Positions 49,453 to 64,000 of a stretch of 64,000 bases of DNA are shown piece after piece (position 1 is the stretch's first letter; each line of letters starts with the position of its first letter). The notes beneath the pieces were generated by a model. The model made no database searches and was not told the DNA's origin. It was given only the letters and a program-made list of their open reading frames with translations. The translations under genes and the position numbers were made by a program. Source of the DNA: Dictyostelium discoideum (Eukaryota); assembly GCA_000004695.1 (NCBI GenBank), contig CM000152.2:3840001-3904000 (forward strand). Direction: 5' to 3'.

Positions 49453-49709
49453 TTAGGAGGACTATATCATAAAAAATAAAAACAAAAAGTTTCACAAATA
49501 CAAGGAACAATTAGATCAACTACTTTGAACTCCTTGTATGGTTTGGAAGATTTTGGCAATTAATTATTTTTTAAAAAAAAAAAAATTAAATCCTTAACTT
49601 GTCAAATAAAATATAATTTAACTAATATCTTCACAGATGATTTTATTTTAAATAAAGTAATATTACAAAAATAATTATTTTGAACATAAATTTTATAATT
49701 ATAAAAATT

Positions 49710-50076
49710 TTAAATACCACAACATGAACCATTTCCTCCACCCATACTTCCATGACCATGACCATGGCCACGATTACCAGATCCACGATTACTACCACAA
49801 GCACCGCTTGATCTAGAACCTCCAGTTAAATCTAATCCTAGACCTAAACCTAATCCAAGAATACTTCCACTTCCTCCACCACAACCGCCACCACATGCAA
49901 TTGAATTAGAACCCATACTTGTCCCACTACCAAACGAGGCAATACTGGATTTTGAACTTGTCATTGGACTTGAAATTGATGAGATTGATGCTTTTATTTA
50001 ATTATAAATTAATTAGTTTTAATTTTTTTTTTTTTAAAAAATAAAATATCATTAAATCCTTACAAAAAAGTGTCAT
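49710..50076 (-). CDS. hssA/2C/7E-family small Gly/Ser/Cys-rich protein, copy 1 (subtype A); exons (minus) 50064..50076 and 49710..49990
   Basis: The 13-nt exon 1 is ATG ACA CTT TTT T (MTLF), with a GTAAGG donor. Exon 2 follows AG 49992-91 in phase 1: S-SISSISSP...[30 protein letters not shown]...[16 protein letters not shown]...CCGI*. The family assignment is from the characteristic MTLF...SISS...FGSG...CGG architecture. Confidence 0.75.
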
Positions 50077-50822
50077 TTTATTTTTTCTGATTAAGTGAAT
50101 AACTAAATTTTTTAAATTTTTTATTTATACTTTTTTTTAAACCTTAAATAATAATTTACTTTTTATCAATAAATAATAATTTGTAATTTATCCAAAAAAG
50201 TATAATGTCAAAAAGCTTAACACAATTTTTATAATTAATATTCTTACTTTTGTGTTTTTATTAGATGAAAATATACTTTTTAACAGTTTATACATTTATT
50301 TGAAATAAATAAAAATAATATTATTTTTAATATATTAATTTTTTATAATAAAAACGATAGCGATTATCATTAACAATTTTATAACCCCACTCCACAATTA
50401 TTAAAAAATAATTTTAAAAGTGGTGTTTAAAATAAAAAAAAAATCACTAATAACAATACCGCCACCTGCCATTAAAAAAATAAAATTTTCTATATTACAT
50501 TTCTTGTAAAATTTATCACACATGTGGGAAGTAATGAAAATATAAATTTCAAAAAATAAAAAAAATCAATTAACAATACAATGAAATATTAAAATAATTT
50601 GTTTAAAATAAAAATCTTTTTTTTTAATAAATCATTTTAAAAAAGAGGGAAATTTAATTTTTTAAAAAAAAGTATTATGATAATAATAAAAAACAAATTT
50701 TTTTAAAAATTAAAAAAGTTCTAATTTATTTAGTTTTTTTAATTTAATTGGAAATTCGCCAATTTTAAATTAAAGTAGTATTACATTTATTGTAATGTTG
50801 AGTATATATATTATAATAATTT

Positions 50823-51195
50823 TTAAATACCACAACAACAACCTCCACAGCATGGGCTTTTTCCTCCACCCATACCTCCATTACCATTACCACGGTTTCC
50901 ACCATTACCACCACAAGCACCTCTTGATCTAGAACCTCCAGTTAAATCTAAACCCAATCCTAAACCTAATCCTAAACCAAGAATGCCTCCACTTCCACCA
51001 CAACCACCACATGCAATTGAATTTGAGCCCATACTTGTTCCACTACCAAATGATGAAATACTGGATTTTGAACTTGTCATTGGATTTGAGATTGATGAAA
51101 TTGATGCTATTAATTTTTTTAATTTAATAAGTATTCATATTTAATTTTAAATATTCCTTTATTATAATTTAAAAATACTTACAAAAGAGGGTCAT
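50823..51195 (-). CDS. hssA/2C/7E-family protein, copy 2 (subtype A); exons 51183..51195 and 50823..51106
   Basis: Same structure as copy 1: exon 1 ATG ACC CTC TTT T with a GTAAGT donor, and exon 2 after AG 51108-07. It ends ...[15 protein letters not shown]. Confidence 0.75.
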
Positions 51196-51711
51196 TTTAT
51201 TTTTTTATTTATTTTATTAAATTTTAGTTTATTTAATTATTTATTGAATTAATAATTTATTGATGAAATAAATAATAAAATTTTTTATTTATTTATACAT
51301 TTTTTTTTGAAATAATTTATTAATTAAAAATATTTTGTAATTTAACCTCAAGTCTACATAGTCAAAAAGTTACACACTAATTTCTAATAAATCAATTATG
51401 TTAGATTAATTCTTTTTACAAATTATACTTAAATAGAAAAAAGTTTAAAAAATGAAATTTCTAAATGGAATGTTTAAAACTTCATATAAAAACGAATTTG
51501 TTTATCACCAAACACACATATATTTATTAAAAAATTGAAATATAGTGTTTTCAATTCAAAAAAATCATCATATGATCTTTAACAATACCCCCATTTTTTA
51601 AACCTAAAAATAATTATCACCAACTTACAATTATCTTAATATTTTTTTTATATTAAAAATTTAAAGACGATGATATTATTTTAATGAAAACACTCTAATG
51701 ATTGATACCAC

Positions 51712-51742
<31 letters not shown>

Positions 51743-52079
51743 AAAACTTTAATTTTTAAATAAAATTTCAATTATAAAATAAAAACCAAATTATAGTTGT
51801 TTTAAATTTTTTTTTTTTTTATAAAAATGAACATGAGTAATTTTTACTATCGAAAATTCATATCCTATTCCCCTAAATTGATCTCCATTTTTAAACATCA
51901 AAACAATATACAAAATTTTCAAATTAAGACAATAAGAAAAAAAAAAAAAATAATTTGAAAAAATAGTTTTTTATTTATTTGTTTTTTTTTATAATTTGGT
52001 AATCCACCAATTTTATTTTAAATAAAATTGTTTTATATTTATAGTAATTTGGTAATATATTATAGTTTTTTTAAATATT

Positions 52080-60776: not shown

Positions 60777-61596
60777 TTTATTTTTGATTTATTTTATTTA
60801 AATTAAAATTTGATTTATTTAATATTTGATGATTTAATAAAAATAAAAAAAAAAAAAAAAAACTTATAATTTATACCTTTTTTTTTTTTATAGGATAATT
60901 AAAATTAAATCATATTTTTTTTTTTTTTTTTCTTTAAATTATAATAATTTGTAATATAACCAATTTTATACAAATGTATAATGTCAAAAAAGTTAACCAC
61001 AAATTACAAATTCTTTGAATTATACTTTTTTTTTTTGTGTGTTTATATACATTTTTGACAGTTTATATTAAAAAGGATAAAATGAACTTTCTAGTTAATA
61101 ATAACAAATTCGTATTTAATTAATCCACACAACCCACAATTTAAGGTGCCGTTAAAAAAAAAAAAAAAAAAAATAAAATAAATACAATAGAAAAATAACA
61201 ATACCACCAACCAACCTTTAAAAAATTATTTTTTACCATATTACAATTCTTGTAAAATTAACACTAGTGTGGGATGTAATGGTAATATTCAAAAAATAAA
61301 ATCAATTAACAATACAATGAATTAAAACAATAATAAAACCTTAAACTGATAACCTTAACTAGTTTATTAAATATAAATTTTTTTTTTTTAATCAATCATT
61401 TTAAATAGAGTAAAATTAAATTTGAAAAAAAGTATTATTATAATAATAAAAAACGAAATTTTAAAACATTTAAAAAAATTCTGATTTAATTTATTTAGTT
61501 TTTTAATTTAATTGGAAATTCGCCAATTTTTAAATATAATAGTATTACATTTGTTGTAATTTTGAAAATATATTTTTAATAATTTATAAAAATATT

Positions 61597-61927
61597 TTAA
61601 ATACCACAACAACAACCTCCACAACATGGGCCATTTCCTCCACCCATACCTCCATTACCATTACCACGGTTTCCACCATTACCACCACATGCACCTCTTG
61701 ATCTAGAACCACCAGTTAAATCTAAACCTAATCCTAAACCTAATCCTAAACCAAGAATACCACCACTTCCACCACAACCACCTCCACATGCAACTGTATT
61801 TGAACCCATACTTGTTCCACTACCAAATGATGATATACTGGATTTTGAACTTGTCATTGGATTTGAAATTGATGAAATTGATGCTATTAATTTTATAATT
61901 TAATTAGTATTCATAATTTATTTTATA

Positions 61928-61963
<36 letters not shown>

Positions 61964-61980
61964 TTACAAAAGAGTGTCAT
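61597..61980 (-). CDS. hssA/2C/7E-family protein, copy 7 (subtype A); exons 61968..61980 and 61597..61883
   Basis: Same structure; ends ...[13 protein letters not shown]. Confidence 0.75.
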
Positions 61981-62908
61981 TTTATTTTATTTTATTTAAG
62001 TTTAGTTTATTTTTTTATTTTTTTATTAAATTAATAATATATTTATGGAATTAATAATAAAGTTTTTAATTTATTTATACATTTTTTTTTGAAATAATTA
62101 TTTAAATTGAATAATCACTTTTTATTAATTAAAAATAGTTTGTAATTTAACCTCAAGTCTACAAAGCCAAAAAGTTATCCACGAATTTCTAATAAATCAA
62201 TTCTGTAAGATTAAATCTTTTTACAAATTCTACATAAGAGAAAAAAGTTTAAACAATATAAAAAAATAAATTGAAATTTCTAAATGGAATGTATAAAACT
62301 TCATATAAAAACGAATTTGTTTATCACCCCAACCCACAAATATTTATTGAAAAATTGAAAATAGTGGTTGCAATTCAAAAAAAAAAAATCTTCATATGAT
62401 CTTTAACAATAACCCCATTTTTTAAACCTAAAAATAATTATCACCAACTTACATTTTTTTTTTTTTTATATTAAAAATAGACTTATATATAATTTAAAGA
62501 AGATAATAAAATTTTAATGAAAAAATTATAATGATTGGTATTATAAAAAAAAAACTATATCTTTTATTTTAAACTAAAATTTTAATGATAAAATCATAAA
62601 CCAAATTATGTTTTAAAATTATTCAATTAATAATTGTTTTTTTTTATAAAATTGAACATGATTGATTTTTTCTATAGAAGATTCGAATCTTTGTCCCCTT
62701 ATCAAATCTTAACTCTAAAAACATCAAAACAATATATCAATAGTTTTAAATTAAGATAATAGAAAATAATAAAATAAAATAATTTAAAACAATAATTTTT
62801 TATTTGTTTTTTTTTTTATAGTTCGGTAATTCATCAATTTTATATTAAATAAAATAGTATTACATTTATAGTAATGTTGAATAAATATTTGTAAATTTTT
62901 TTAATATT

Positions 62909-63326
62909 TTAAATACCACAACATGGGCCTCCACAACATGAACCATTTCCTCCACCCATACCTCCATTACCATTACCATTACCACGATTACCACCACAAG
63001 CACCTCTTGATCTAGAACCACCAGTTAAATCTAAACCTAATCCTAGACCTAAACCTAAACCTGAGCCAAGAATACCACCACTTCCACCACAACCACCACA
63101 TGCAATTGAATTTGAACCCATACTTGTTCCACTACCGAATGATGAAATACTGGATTTTGATCCAGACATTGAGGTTGACATTGATGAGATTGATGCTAAA
63201 AAATAATTTAAATTATAAAATTAGTATTTTATTTTATTATATAATATTTATATAATTATAAAATATTATGAAATATATAATTTCAACCATAAATAAAATA
63301 TTTTAATCCTTACAAAAGAGTGTCAT
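62909..63326 (-). CDS. hssA/2C/7E-family protein, copy 8 (subtype B); exons 63314..63326 and 62909..63195
   Basis: Same structure; subtype-B body. Confidence 0.75.
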
Positions 63327-64000
63327 TTTATTTTTTATTTTTTTTAATTTTTGATTTATTTAATATTTGATGATTTAGTTGATTAAAAAAAAAAAAAAAC
63401 TTATAATTTATACTTTTTTTATTTTTAGGATAATTAAAACTAAATCATATTTTTTATTTTTTTTCTTTAAATTATAATAATTTGTAATATAACCAAATTT
63501 TTTACAAATGTATAACGTCAAAAAATTAACCACAAAATTACAATAAAACAAATTCTTTGATTTATTCTTTTTTTTTTTATTTGTTTGTATTATATTTTTG
63601 ACGGTTTATATTAAAAATGAAATTTCCAGTTAATAATAACAAATTCGTATTTATTTAATTAACCCCCACAACCCACAAATTTATATTAATAAAAAAAAAA
63701 AAATTTATGGTGTTAATTAAAAAATAAAAAAAAATAAAAAATAAAAAAAATAGTAATAATAACAATACCACCTTTTTTTTTTTTTTACCAATTTACAATT
63801 TAATTTCGATTTTATTAATTTTATTATCAATTGTATTTAAAAAAAATTGTAATATCAAATTTAACAATAAACAATCAAATATATATCATTTTCTATTTAA
63901 ATATGATAATGTTATTAAATTTTCTTTTTTTTTTTTTTTTTTAGAAAATTAAAATTACAATAAATACAAATTTAGATTAATAAATATTAATATATAAATT

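What the first reader, a model, noticed from the sequence alone, without database searches (positions are those of the whole stretch)
49600..63960. Eight-copy hssA/2C/7E array with strictly alternating subtypes, an invariant 13-nt first exon and conserved 3' palindromes
All eight genes begin with the same micro-exon (ATG ACN CTY TTT T = MTLF) followed by a phase-1 intron of 55-125 bp. The plus-strand motif aatccttacaaaagagtgtcatttta is nearly invariant, including the presumed 5'UTR. Two body subtypes (A ends CCGGCC(C)GI; B has the [13 protein letters not shown] prefix and ends GGPCCGI) alternate. Each subtype has its own conserved 3'-flank hairpin-like palindrome about 40 bp past the stop: attacaTTTATtgtaat for A, attacATTTATAgtaat for B. 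Near-identical coding and non-coding sequence across units suggests ongoing concerted evolution. The palindromes are candidate 3'-end processing or regulatory elements. The ORF-track Met starts for these genes are internal and misleading.
Basis: partly seen in the sequence, partly recalled or inferred. Interest (0 to 1): 0.5.

Follow-up and report, generated by a model that had tools for sequence, protein, structure and literature searches.

The report
Known Dictyostelium hssA/sigN gene array
This is an already catalogued cluster of eight small developmental genes on Dictyostelium discoideum chromosome 3; its "hairpins" are one old, conserved sequence just after each gene that probably lies in the 3' untranslated region, and base-pairing is not what is being conserved.

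Summary
The eight genes are real. All lie on the minus strand, with a 13-nt first exon (MTLF), a phase-1 intron of 71-118 nt and products of 97-101 aa that match Pfam PF05710. The window is D. discoideum chromosome 3. The genes match sigN133/115/130/114/128/125/123/119 of Vicente et al. 2008, who had already described the 13-nt exon for 89 of 96 family members.

Three claims need correcting. The order is A',A,B,A,B | 4.55-kb foreign block | B,A,B. This is a ~2.45-kb two-gene repeat in which one A gene was replaced, not strict alternation. Ongoing concerted evolution is not supported: dS is ~0.14 within a subtype, non-coding identity is 72-88%, and the longest identical tract is 84 nt. The two "subtype-specific palindromes" are one element, ATTAC[A/T]ATAAATGTAAT, differing by one base. 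It is broken in g3 and absent in g1.

That element is nevertheless the best-conserved part of the 3' flank. It is shared with a paralogous hssA cluster (identity 0.87, against 0.70 at synonymous sites). Arm changes never compensate, and the stem is worth only -2.1 to -2.7 kcal/mol. It most likely belongs to a conserved 3'-UTR block upstream of a positionally conserved AATAAA. No poly(A)-site data were available to test this.

The parts
49710..50076 (-). g1: hssA/2C/7E gene, 97 aa, third type (A-like prefix, ends GSCCGI). Exon 1 50064-50076, intron 73 nt, exon 2 49710-49990. Matches sigN133 by size.
50823..51195 (-). g2: subtype A, 98 aa, intron 76 nt. Matches sigN115.
52080..52473 (-). g3: subtype B, 100 aa, intron 91 nt. 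Matches sigN130, which was predicted unspliced from an intronic ATG.
53288..53652 (-). g4: subtype A, 97 aa, intron 71 nt. Matches sigN114.
54494..54883 (-). g5: subtype B, 98 aa, intron 93 nt. Matches sigN128.
60382..60776 (-). g6: subtype B, 101 aa, intron 89 nt. Matches sigN125.
61597..61980 (-). g7: subtype A, 99 aa, intron 84 nt. Matches sigN123.
62909..63326 (-). g8: subtype B, 99 aa, intron 118 nt. Matches sigN119.
50745..50804 (-). g2 conserved 3' block (stop+19..+78). Contains the dyad ATTACAATAAATGTAAT at 50780-50796 and the AATTGGCGAATTTCCAATT box.
51993..52055 (-). g3 conserved 3' block. The dyad is degenerate (ATTACTATAAATATAAA, 52032-52048) and its right arm is lost.
53202..53262 (-). 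g4 conserved 3' block. Dyad ATTACAATAAATGTAAT at 53238-53254.
54408..54470 (-). g5 conserved 3' block. Dyad ATTACTATAAATGTAAT at 54447-54463 and TGGTGAATTACC box at 54414-54424.
60292..60354 (-). g6 conserved 3' block. Dyad at 60331-60347. A 79-nt stretch is identical to the g5 block.
61509..61568 (-). g7 conserved 3' block. Dyad ATTACAACAAATGTAAT at 61544-61560, where the loop hexamer is AACAAA.
62820..62883 (-). g8 conserved 3' block. Dyad at 62859-62875.
49628..49686 (-). g1 3' flank. Only the right half of the element is kept (TGTAATATTACTTTATTTAAAATAAAAT). There is no left arm and no GGYGAATTWCC box.
55597..60145 (.). 4.55-kb block that interrupts the array and replaces one A-type gene with its promoter. 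Left breakpoint at 55596/55597, inside the A-type 3' block. Right breakpoint at about 60145, in the distal B-type 3' flank. Carries the M23-like ORF 58059-60113 (+).
52851..52865 (-). Example of the G/T-rich box TTGTGGGTTG(G/T)GG, found 321-392 nt upstream of the ATG in 7 of 8 genes. Other copies: 50383-50397, 53964-53978, 55209-55222, 61126-61139, 62325-62339, 63664-63678. GTATAAAT boxes lie 54-103 nt upstream of the ATG in 7 genes; in g3 the only exact match is at -254.

Best explanation
SHOWN. The region is an annotated cluster of eight hssA/2C/7E (sigN, 'hssA/B-like', Pfam PF05710) genes on D. discoideum chromosome 3. It was built by tandem duplication of a ~2.45-kb head-to-tail two-gene unit (A + B). 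One A gene and its promoter were later replaced by a 4.55-kb block that carries DDB_G0280935. The terminal copy, g1, is a diverged third type. The copies are old duplicates, with synonymous and promoter divergence of about 13-15%. They are held similar by purifying selection on the protein (dN/dS ~0.1), not by ongoing homogenisation. The 13-nt MTLF exon and phase-1 intron are the published hallmark of the family.

SHOWN. The two 'palindromes' are a single ancestral element, ATTAC-W-ATAAA-TGTAATA. It is older than this array, is shared with a paralogous hssA cluster, and is conserved above the synonymous-site level. It sits in a ~60-nt conserved block that starts 19-29 nt after the stop codon.

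INFERRED. This block is part of the 3'UTR. It lies upstream of a positionally conserved canonical AATAAA at +89 to +106. It acts as a linear RNA (or DNA) sequence element in 3'-end formation or mRNA regulation, with the invariant UGUA-containing right half as the likeliest recognition site. The weak hairpin is incidental.

INFERRED. All eight genes share homologous promoters with G/T-rich (GBF-type) boxes and are probably co-induced from about 8 h of development.
For: IDENTITY.
- Pfam PF05710 at 68-76 bits.
- ORF 58059-60113 is exactly DDB_G0280935.
- All eight genes match, by protein length and intron length, the consecutive gene models DDB0215260-64 and DDB0218272-74 on chromosome 3 in Vicente 2008 Additional file 1.
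- The 13-nt exon is published.

ARCHITECTURE.
- Self-BLAST gives 2.3-2.6-kb alignments at 81-83% identity between A+B units.
- Junction alignments define the breakpoints.
- The structure is the same, at 99.76% identity, in a second assembly.

NO HOMOGENISATION.
- dS is 0.14 and dN 0.014 within a type; A-B dS is 0.24.
- Non-coding identity is 72-88%.
- The longest exact match between units is 84 nt.

3' ELEMENT.
- A and B versions differ by one base.
- Block identity is 0.89-0.91 within a type and 0.81 between types, against 0.59-0.79 for the flank on either side.
- Twelve paralogous copies carry it.
- Against those paralogs, identity is 0.87 in the element, 0.78 in the block, 0.70 at synonymous sites, and 0.68 and 0.60 in the adjacent flank.
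- It ranks 1-2 of 133 windows.
- The block is separated from the CDS by a poorly conserved, indel-rich spacer, so it is not spill-over of a coding conversion tract.
- A distal A(n)-C-W-AAATAAA is present at +89..+103 in 7 of 7 genes g2-g8 and in 5 paralogs. The loop hexamer is canonical AATAAA in only 2 of 8 genes here and 3 of 20 overall.

PROMOTERS AND EXPRESSION.
- Shared boxes in the promoters.
- Six hssA-family genes with IDs flanking DDB_G0280935 switch on at 8 h and peak at 12-16 h.
Against: - No transcript-end data could be obtained, so the position of the element relative to the poly(A) site is inferred only.
- In the two most divergent copies (L005_338 and the D. firmibasis gene), both arms (ATTAC, GTAAT) persist while the loop loses ATAAA. 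This leaves a hairpin or dyad reading alive and argues against the loop hexamer being the conserved feature.
- Within this array alone, 6-17% of non-coding 17-nt windows are as conserved as the element.
- Conservation statistics among paralogs are not independent, because of shared ancestry and possible old conversion.
- The UGUA / PUF / CFIm resemblance comes from memory and was not tested.
- The mapping of DDB_G expression rows to individual genes of the array was not verified.
Confidence: 0.6

Rival explanations
1. The element works as a hairpin. The ATTAC(A)/(T)GTAAT arms pair in the nascent RNA (or in extruded DNA), and the structure marks or regulates 3'-end processing.
For: - The arms are intact in 6 of 8 genes here and in several paralogs.
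- They persist in L005_338 and in the D. firmibasis gene, where the loop sequence and length differ.
- The isolated 21-mers fold at -2.1 to -2.7 kcal/mol, with z of -3.4 to -6.0 against shuffles.
- The hairpin appears in the minimum-energy fold of five of the eight 120-nt flanks, and in the centroid fold of a sixth (g7).
Against: - Over 20 copies there is no compensatory pattern. Only 1 of 120 cells changes on both sides. The changes AGTAC (four copies), TATAC, GTAAA (three copies), GTTAT and ATAAA in g3 all break pairing.
- The sixth pair exists in 5 of 20 copies only.
- The stems are A/U-rich and marginal.
- The 120-nt flanks fold no better than shuffles, z from +0.86 to -1.73.
- Such inverted repeats occur about 34-38 times per kb here.
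- g3 and g1 lack the element yet keep intact ORFs.
Confidence: 0.12
2. The loop hexamer (A/T)ATAAA is itself the poly(A) signal. The GU-containing box TTGGYGAATT about 25 nt downstream is the downstream element. Transcripts therefore end between the two, and the arms are only the conserved context.
For: - AATAAA (g2, g4) or TATAAA (g3, g5, g6, g8) sits in the loop 32-40 nt after the stop.
- The only G-rich patch of the flank follows at a distance typical of a downstream element.
- Use of AATAAA as the poly(A) signal in Dictyostelium is established background knowledge and was not verified here.
Against: - The hexamer is canonical in only 3 of 20 copies.
- It is AACAAA in g7, and lost altogether in L005_338, L005_8959, L005_10001 and D. 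firmibasis, while the arms remain.
- Loop positions are less conserved than the right arm.
- A canonical AATAAA is positionally conserved further downstream in all of g2-g8.
- AATAAA-like hexamers are frequent by chance in 85% A+T DNA.
Confidence: 0.15
3. The element has no function of its own. It and the block around it are similar only because the units share recent ancestry or past gene-conversion tracts.
For: - Everything in a unit is 72-96% identical by descent.
- Within this array, 6-17% of non-coding windows are equally conserved.
- g5 and g6 share a 79-nt identical stretch across the block, which could be a conversion tract.
Against: - The element is more conserved than synonymous sites and than the flank on both sides in A-B comparisons, and in comparisons with a separate cluster (0.87 against 0.70, 0.68 and 0.60).
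- It is the top-ranked window across 20 copies.
- A recognisable copy exists in D. firmibasis.
- The block is separated from the CDS by a variable spacer.
Confidence: 0.13

Closest known systems
sigN Group 1 and Group 2 clusters on D. discoideum chromosome 2 (Vicente et al. 2008, PMC2257962)
   Same: Same gene family. Same structure of a 13-nt exon-1 ORF, one short intron and a second exon. Small Gly/Ser/Cys-rich products. Clusters of 6-7 very similar genes inferred to have grown by duplication of a two-gene tandem. Promoters with G/C-rich GBF-like boxes. Induction at about 10 h.
   Different: The proteins here are 97-101 aa, not 87-89 aa, and are listed at only 26-32% identity to SigN1. The two-gene unit here is head-to-tail, whereas theirs is described as oppositely oriented. 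This array is interrupted by an unrelated 4.55-kb block.
hssA/2C/7E family, Pfam PF05710 'Coiled' (UniProt 'HssA/B-like proteins')
   Same: All eight products match the profile from residue 1 at 68-76 bits. Relatives named HssA/B-like protein 49, 50 and 52 share the N-terminal 40 residues and the CCGI end.
   Different: Nothing. These are ordinary members. The B-type prefix [13 protein letters not shown] is a local variant.
Paralogous hssA cluster next to the Erg28 gene (loci L004 and L005, from D. cf. discoideum and a second D. discoideum assembly)
   Same: Head-to-tail array of 5-7 family genes. The 3' block carries the same ATTACWATAAATGTAATA element, and both GGCGAATTTCC and GGTGAATTACC box variants are present.
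   Different: The C-terminal halves of the proteins differ, and there is no regular A/B alternation. Several copies carry AGTAC or GTAAA arm variants.
Cup-cell-specific hssA clade (Kin et al. 2018, PMC6198379)
   Same: Closely related, very highly expressed hssA-family genes with a 13-bp first exon.
   Different: The hssA genes with IDs around DDB_G0280935 have cup TPM below about 3 and peak at 12-16 h. They are therefore not that late cup clade.

Membership tests
hssA/2C/7E (sigN) gene family | Product matches Pfam PF05710 above the gathering score | tested here: met
   68.4, 76.0 and 73.3 bits against a cut-off of 21.4 for g8, g7 and g1, aligned from residue 1 to profile position 1
hssA/2C/7E (sigN) gene family | Exon 1 with a 13-nt ORF, one short intron, and a second exon carrying the rest of the ORF | tested here: met
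   All eight genes have a 13-nt exon 1, GTAAG...AG introns of 71-118 nt and a continuous reading frame. The feature is defined.
hssA/2C/7E (sigN) gene family | Small (<120 aa) Ser/Gly/Cys-rich protein of D. discoideum | tested here: met
   97-101 aa. The organism is fixed by the exact match of the neighbouring ORF to DDB_G0280935.
hssA/2C/7E (sigN) gene family | Developmentally induced expression | not testable with these tools
   Published table values for six hssA genes whose IDs flank DDB_G0280935 show onset at 8 h and a peak at 12-16 h. The mapping of IDs to g1-g8 was not verified.
Concerted evolution / ongoing gene conversion in a tandem array | Paralogs nearly identical at neutral sites and in non-coding DNA, with long identical tracts | tested here: not met
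   dS is 0.11-0.17 within a type. Non-coding identity is 72-88% with many indels. The longest exact match is 84 nt.
Conserved RNA/DNA hairpin element | Base pairs maintained by compensatory changes | tested here: not met
   In helix 1, 1 of 120 cells changes on both sides, and the other arm changes break pairing.
Conserved RNA/DNA hairpin element | Stability clearly above background | tested here: inconclusive
   The isolated stem is -2.1 to -2.7 kcal/mol with z of -3.4 to -6.0. In 120-nt context z is +0.86 to -1.73. Such inverted repeats occur about 34-38 times per kb.
Canonical poly(A) signal | AAUAAA-type hexamer in the 3' flank | tested here: met
   The loop carries AATAAA in g2 and g4, TATAAA in the four B genes and AACAAA in g7. 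A distal AATAAA lies at +92..+106 in g2-g8. The hexamer is common by chance in this composition.
Canonical poly(A) signal | Cleavage and polyadenylation 10-30 nt downstream of the hexamer | not testable with these tools
   No cDNA, EST or RNA-seq contig could be retrieved.

The most novel reading that the evidence does not exclude
The conserved 3' block (ATTAC-N7-UGUAAUA[C/A]UACUUU plus the GGYGAAUUWCC box) may be a dedicated post-transcriptional control element of one hssA subfamily. Candidates are a binding site for a PUF-type or CFIm-type UGUA reader, or a weak hairpin. It would set 3'-end choice, stability or translation for these very abundant developmental mRNAs. It might also underlie the reported RNA-level (frame-independent) activity of hssA in suppressing a STATa defect, which is cited in PMC6198379.
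Probability: 0.15. Interest if true: 0.45.

Novelty: already known. Interest (0 to 1): 0.2.

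Why it matters
The main value is tidying an existing record. The array, its family and its micro-exon structure are already published and annotated, so the finding does not open a new question.

Three by-products are mildly useful.
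1. Six of the eight mechanical ORFs, and at least two public gene models (sigN130 and the 101-aa model in GCA_054883475.1), start at the wrong ATG.
2. A short 3' element is conserved above the neutral level across at least two hssA clusters. It gives a concrete, mutable target for asking how this ~100-gene family, whose function is still unknown, is regulated after transcription.
3. The array records a datable replacement of one unit by a GC-rich M23-like gene. That gene is unexpectedly close (80% at nucleotide level) to a Polysphondylium violaceum gene.

Tried and rejected
- Transcript evidence. Look-ups of HssA/B-like 50, 49 and 52 found nothing on record. The unspliced g6 ORF returned only the same genome assembly. 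No poly(A)-site data were obtained.
- Exact look-up of all eight spliced proteins found none in the collection.
- The homologue search with a B-type protein returned only 6 proteins, which is poor recall for this low-complexity family.
- Literature. Two old Dictyostelium papers listed for 'AATAAA' did not hold the term in the stored text. The 'hssA STATa suppressor' search and the DDB_G ID search gave nothing usable.
- Rfam at gathering thresholds over 49000-64000 found only the tRNA.
- The generic inverted-repeat scan found 99 pairs, dominated by AT-rich low-complexity sequence, and was uninformative.
- Rejected: that g1 is simply subtype A. Its C-terminus, promoter (59-66% identity to both types) and 3' flank all differ.
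- Rejected: that the conserved 3' block is spill-over of coding conservation. The 19-29 nt right after the stop are poorly conserved.
- Considered, not testable: ATTAC/GTAAT as bZIP-like half-sites for a DNA-binding dimer. The 7-nt spacing is atypical, and no data were available.

Full report
WHAT IS THERE

The window is very AT-rich: 13-37% G+C in 2-kb steps.

Reading the minus strand, each motif is TAAA-ATGACNCTYTTTT-GTAAGGAT, that is, a start codon, 13 coding bases and a splice donor. Joining it to the next AG|CATCAAT acceptor gives eight open reading frames of 97-101 codons, with phase-1 introns of 71-118 nt.

Three representative products (g8, g7, g1) hit Pfam PF05710, the hssA/2C/7E 'Coiled' family. 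The scores are 68-76 bits against a cut-off of 21.4, and the alignments start at residue 1. This independently supports the spliced N-terminus.

The purely mechanical ORFs are indeed misleading. Six begin at internal Mets and two (g3, g6) at an ATG inside the intron.

WHERE IT IS, AND WHAT IS ALREADY KNOWN

The 684-codon ORF at 58059-60113 is identical to DDB_G0280935 of D. discoideum AX4. A second assembly (GCA_054883475.1) is 99.76% identical over 15.97 kb and has the same gene order. All 13 differences are non-coding.

Vicente et al. [quoted passage not shown] Kin et al. 2018 repeat this description.

In Vicente's Additional file 1, eight chromosome-3 entries match my eight genes in protein length. 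Seven of them also have an intron exactly one nt shorter than I count; the eighth, sigN130 (g3), is listed as a single unspliced exon. The entries carry consecutive model numbers:
- DDB0215260-64 = sigN133, 115, 130, 114, 128 (g1-g5)
- DDB0218272-74 = sigN125, 123, 119 (g6-g8)

The 5 + 3 split mirrors the interruption described below. The array and its micro-exon are therefore already catalogued.

Published expression tables list six hssA-family genes whose IDs flank DDB_G0280935. They are silent at 0-4 h, on at 8 h, and peak at 12-16 h, with hundreds to thousands of units in both prestalk and prespore cells. I could not map individual IDs to g1-g8.

ARCHITECTURE

g1 is a third type, with an A-like prefix and a GSCCGI end.

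The order along the window is g1, A, B, A, B, gap, B, A, B.

Self-comparison shows alignments of 2.3-2.6 kb at 81-83% identity that each span an A plus a B gene. The spacings are 2457 bp A-to-A, and 2410 and 2550 bp B-to-B. The array is therefore a tandem repeat of a two-gene, head-to-tail unit.

Between g5 and g6, homology to the unit stops at 55596/55597, 81 nt beyond where an A stop codon would lie. It resumes at about 60145, in the distal B-type 3' flank. So about 1.1 kb (one A gene and its promoter) has been replaced by 4.55 kb of unrelated DNA.

The region 50429-50822, upstream of g1, is homologous to a distal B-type promoter plus an A-type 3' flank. g1 therefore occupies a B slot. In terms of slots the alternation was once regular.

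IS THERE ONGOING CONCERTED EVOLUTION?

Identity within a subtype, counting aligned positions only and ignoring many indels:

| Region | Identity |
|---|---|
| Exon 2 | 95.5% |
| 400 nt upstream | 87% |
| Intron | 77-85% |
| 300 nt downstream | 72-79% |

Nei-Gojobori estimates are dS 0.14 and dN 0.014 within a subtype, dS 0.24 between A and B, and dS 0.35 to g1. Synonymous sites are thus about as diverged as the promoters, and dN/dS is about 0.1.

The longest exact match between any two units is 84 nt. Two independent assemblies of the species differ by only 0.24% here.

The copies are old duplicates kept similar by selection on the protein. They have not been recently homogenised. The one hint of exchange is the spread of A-B dS values (0.16 to 0.33), which rests on only 10-20 synonymous differences per pair.

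THE 3' 'PALINDROMES'

On the coding strand, the A version is ATTACAATAAATGTAAT and the B version is ATTACTATAAATGTAAT. This is one element with a single A/T difference, starting 27-37 nt after the stop. g7 has AACAAA in the loop, g3 has lost the right arm, and g1 lacks the dyad.

Palindromy alone means little here. Inverted repeats with arms of 5 bp or more and loops of 3-8 nt occur about 34-38 times per kb in this DNA.

The stems are worth -2.1 to -2.7 kcal/mol as RNA and -1.2 to -3.0 as DNA. The 120-nt flanks fold no better than shuffled sequence, with z from +0.86 to -1.73.

THE ELEMENT IS NEVERTHELESS CONSERVED MORE THAN ITS SURROUNDINGS

It sits in a block of about 60 nt that follows a poorly conserved, indel-rich spacer. 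Identities:

| Region | Within a type | Between A and B |
|---|---|---|
| 17 element columns | 0.94-0.96 | 0.89 |
| Conserved block | 0.89-0.91 | 0.81 |
| Flank on either side | 0.66-0.79 | 0.59-0.73 |

I then recovered twelve further family genes from a paralogous cluster next to the Erg28 gene, in two other assemblies. All carry a recognisable copy. Comparing g2-g8 with these paralogs:

| Region | Identity |
|---|---|
| Element | 0.87 |
| Block | 0.78 |
| Synonymous sites | 0.70 |
| Flank before the block | 0.68 |
| Flank after the block | 0.60 |

Across all 20 copies, the element is the first- or second-ranked 17-column window of 133. A D. firmibasis family gene also has ATTAC...TGTAATAATAC.

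The element also predates this array.

HAIRPIN OR LINEAR MOTIF?

Counting the six proposed pairs over the 20 copies gives one doubly changed cell out of 120. Every other arm change (AGTAC in four copies, TATAC, GTAAA in three, GTTAT, and ATAAA in g3) breaks a pair without compensation. The sixth pair exists in only 5 of 20 copies.

The right half, TGTAATA-N-TA, is the most invariant stretch. The left arm and the loop are less so.

This favours recognition as linear sequence. One caution: the two most divergent copies keep both arms while the loop changes to TATTATT or TATTTTTTT. A structural or dyad reading therefore cannot be excluded.

The same observation weakens the idea that the loop hexamer is the poly(A) signal. 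The hexamer is canonical AATAAA in only 3 of 20 copies. By contrast, all of g2-g8 and five paralogs have a positionally conserved A-run-C-W-AAATAAA at +89 to +103.

My best reading is that the block is 3'UTR lying upstream of that distal signal.

The UGUA core recalls PUF-type and CFIm-type binding sites. A PUF protein, PufA, acts on a 3' end in Dictyostelium. The resemblance itself comes from memory and is untested. TGTAATANTA occurs 13 times in the window against 3.45 expected, and 7 of those are the non-independent array copies.

A second, G-containing box (AATTGGCGAATTTCCAATT in A, TTGGTGAATTACC in B) follows 15-25 nt downstream. It too is shared with paralogs. It is missing from the last gene of each array: g1, and L005_12309 / L004_15911.

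PROMOTERS

All eight upstream regions are alignable. The shared boxes are:
- a G/T-rich box, TTGTGGGTTG(G/T)GG, 321-392 nt upstream of the ATG in seven genes
- further shared boxes visible in the alignment
- GTATAAAT 54-103 nt upstream of the ATG in seven genes; in g3 the only exact match is at -254

Vicente et al. noted similar putative GBF sites in sigN Group 2 promoters. Identity is 84-89% within a type and 59-66% between types. Co-regulation of A and B is plausible but was not shown here.

VERDICT

Strict alternation, near-identity of non-coding DNA, ongoing concerted evolution and subtype-specific hairpins are not supported.

What survives, and appears not to be described in the papers I could read, is a short 3' element conserved above the neutral level across hssA clusters. 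Its role needs transcript-end mapping and mutagenesis.

Noticed in passing
window 58059-60113 (+); L003 810-2365; L002 10553-11074: The gene that interrupts the array (DDB_G0280935) is an intronless 684-aa ORF with a weak C-terminal Peptidase_M23 match (22.9 bits, below the cut-off). Its body is 40% G+C in a 16-23% G+C neighbourhood. It is 80% identical at nucleotide level over 1574 nt to a Polysphondylium violaceum gene, but only 72.6% over 529 nt (44% aa) to the D. purpureum homologue. Neither of those loci has hssA genes beside it. The C-terminal domain has hundreds of relatives, including the ends of proteins of 1000-2500 aa. This could be lateral transfer between dictyostelids, or mobile cargo.
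   Followed up: partly
window 55597-55770 (-): A 39% G+C piece lies right at the left junction of the inserted block. It has a minus-strand reading frame ...NLLVRFVLPLILLVILGTLVLLCHPPAHNAGHYCRPLAIHLLKLL* that ends about 25 nt from the junction. Any transcript would run into the leftover A-type distal 3' flank with its AATAAA. A candidate upstream exon (ATGTGTACCAAATCATTATAG|GTAAGT) ends in a stop, so no intact gene model was found.
   Followed up: partly
window 52370-52382 and 60675-60687 (-): In g3 and g6 the intron ends ...ATGTTATTATTAG. This puts an ATG exactly 13 nt before exon 2, so the unspliced ORF (MLLLASISS...) has the same length as the spliced protein. It explains the single-exon model sigN130 ('1 - 303') and the 101-aa model in GCA_054883475.1. 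In that assembly only four of the eight genes are called at all.
   Followed up: yes
window 50745-50763, 61509-61527 (A type); 54408-54430, 60292-60314 (B type): A second dyad-like, G-containing box lies in the 3' block: AATTGGCGAATTTCCAATT in A and TTGGTGAATTACCGAATT in B. Both variants also occur in the paralogous cluster. The box is absent downstream of the last gene of each array (g1; L005_12309 / L004_15911). The left breakpoint of the 4.55-kb block lies inside it.
   Followed up: partly
window 49342-49414 (+) and 49443-49452: tRNA-Glu(UUC) lies about 300 nt beyond the 3' end of g1. About 30 nt downstream is GGTTCGAACC, which resembles the external B box I recall for Dictyostelium tRNA genes (from memory, not tested). 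Two tRNA-Gly(GCC) genes lie at 35955-36025 and 36679-36749.
   Followed up: no
C-termini of g1-g8 (e.g. window 49713-49724, minus strand): All eight proteins, and most paralogs, end in Cys-Cys-Gly-Ile. This places a Cys at the -4 position, as in a CaaX prenylation box, next to further Cys residues. Lipid modification was not tested.
   Followed up: no
window 42333-45032 (+): The strong GC and AT skew at 42-44 kb in the composition profile comes from an 899-aa ORF with very long poly-Gln (CAA) runs. This is ordinary for Dictyostelium.
   Followed up: yes
window 54200-54380: Beyond about +115, the distal 3' flank of g5 does not align with that of the other B genes (g3, g6, g8). A further local rearrangement has therefore occurred inside one unit.
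   Followed up: no
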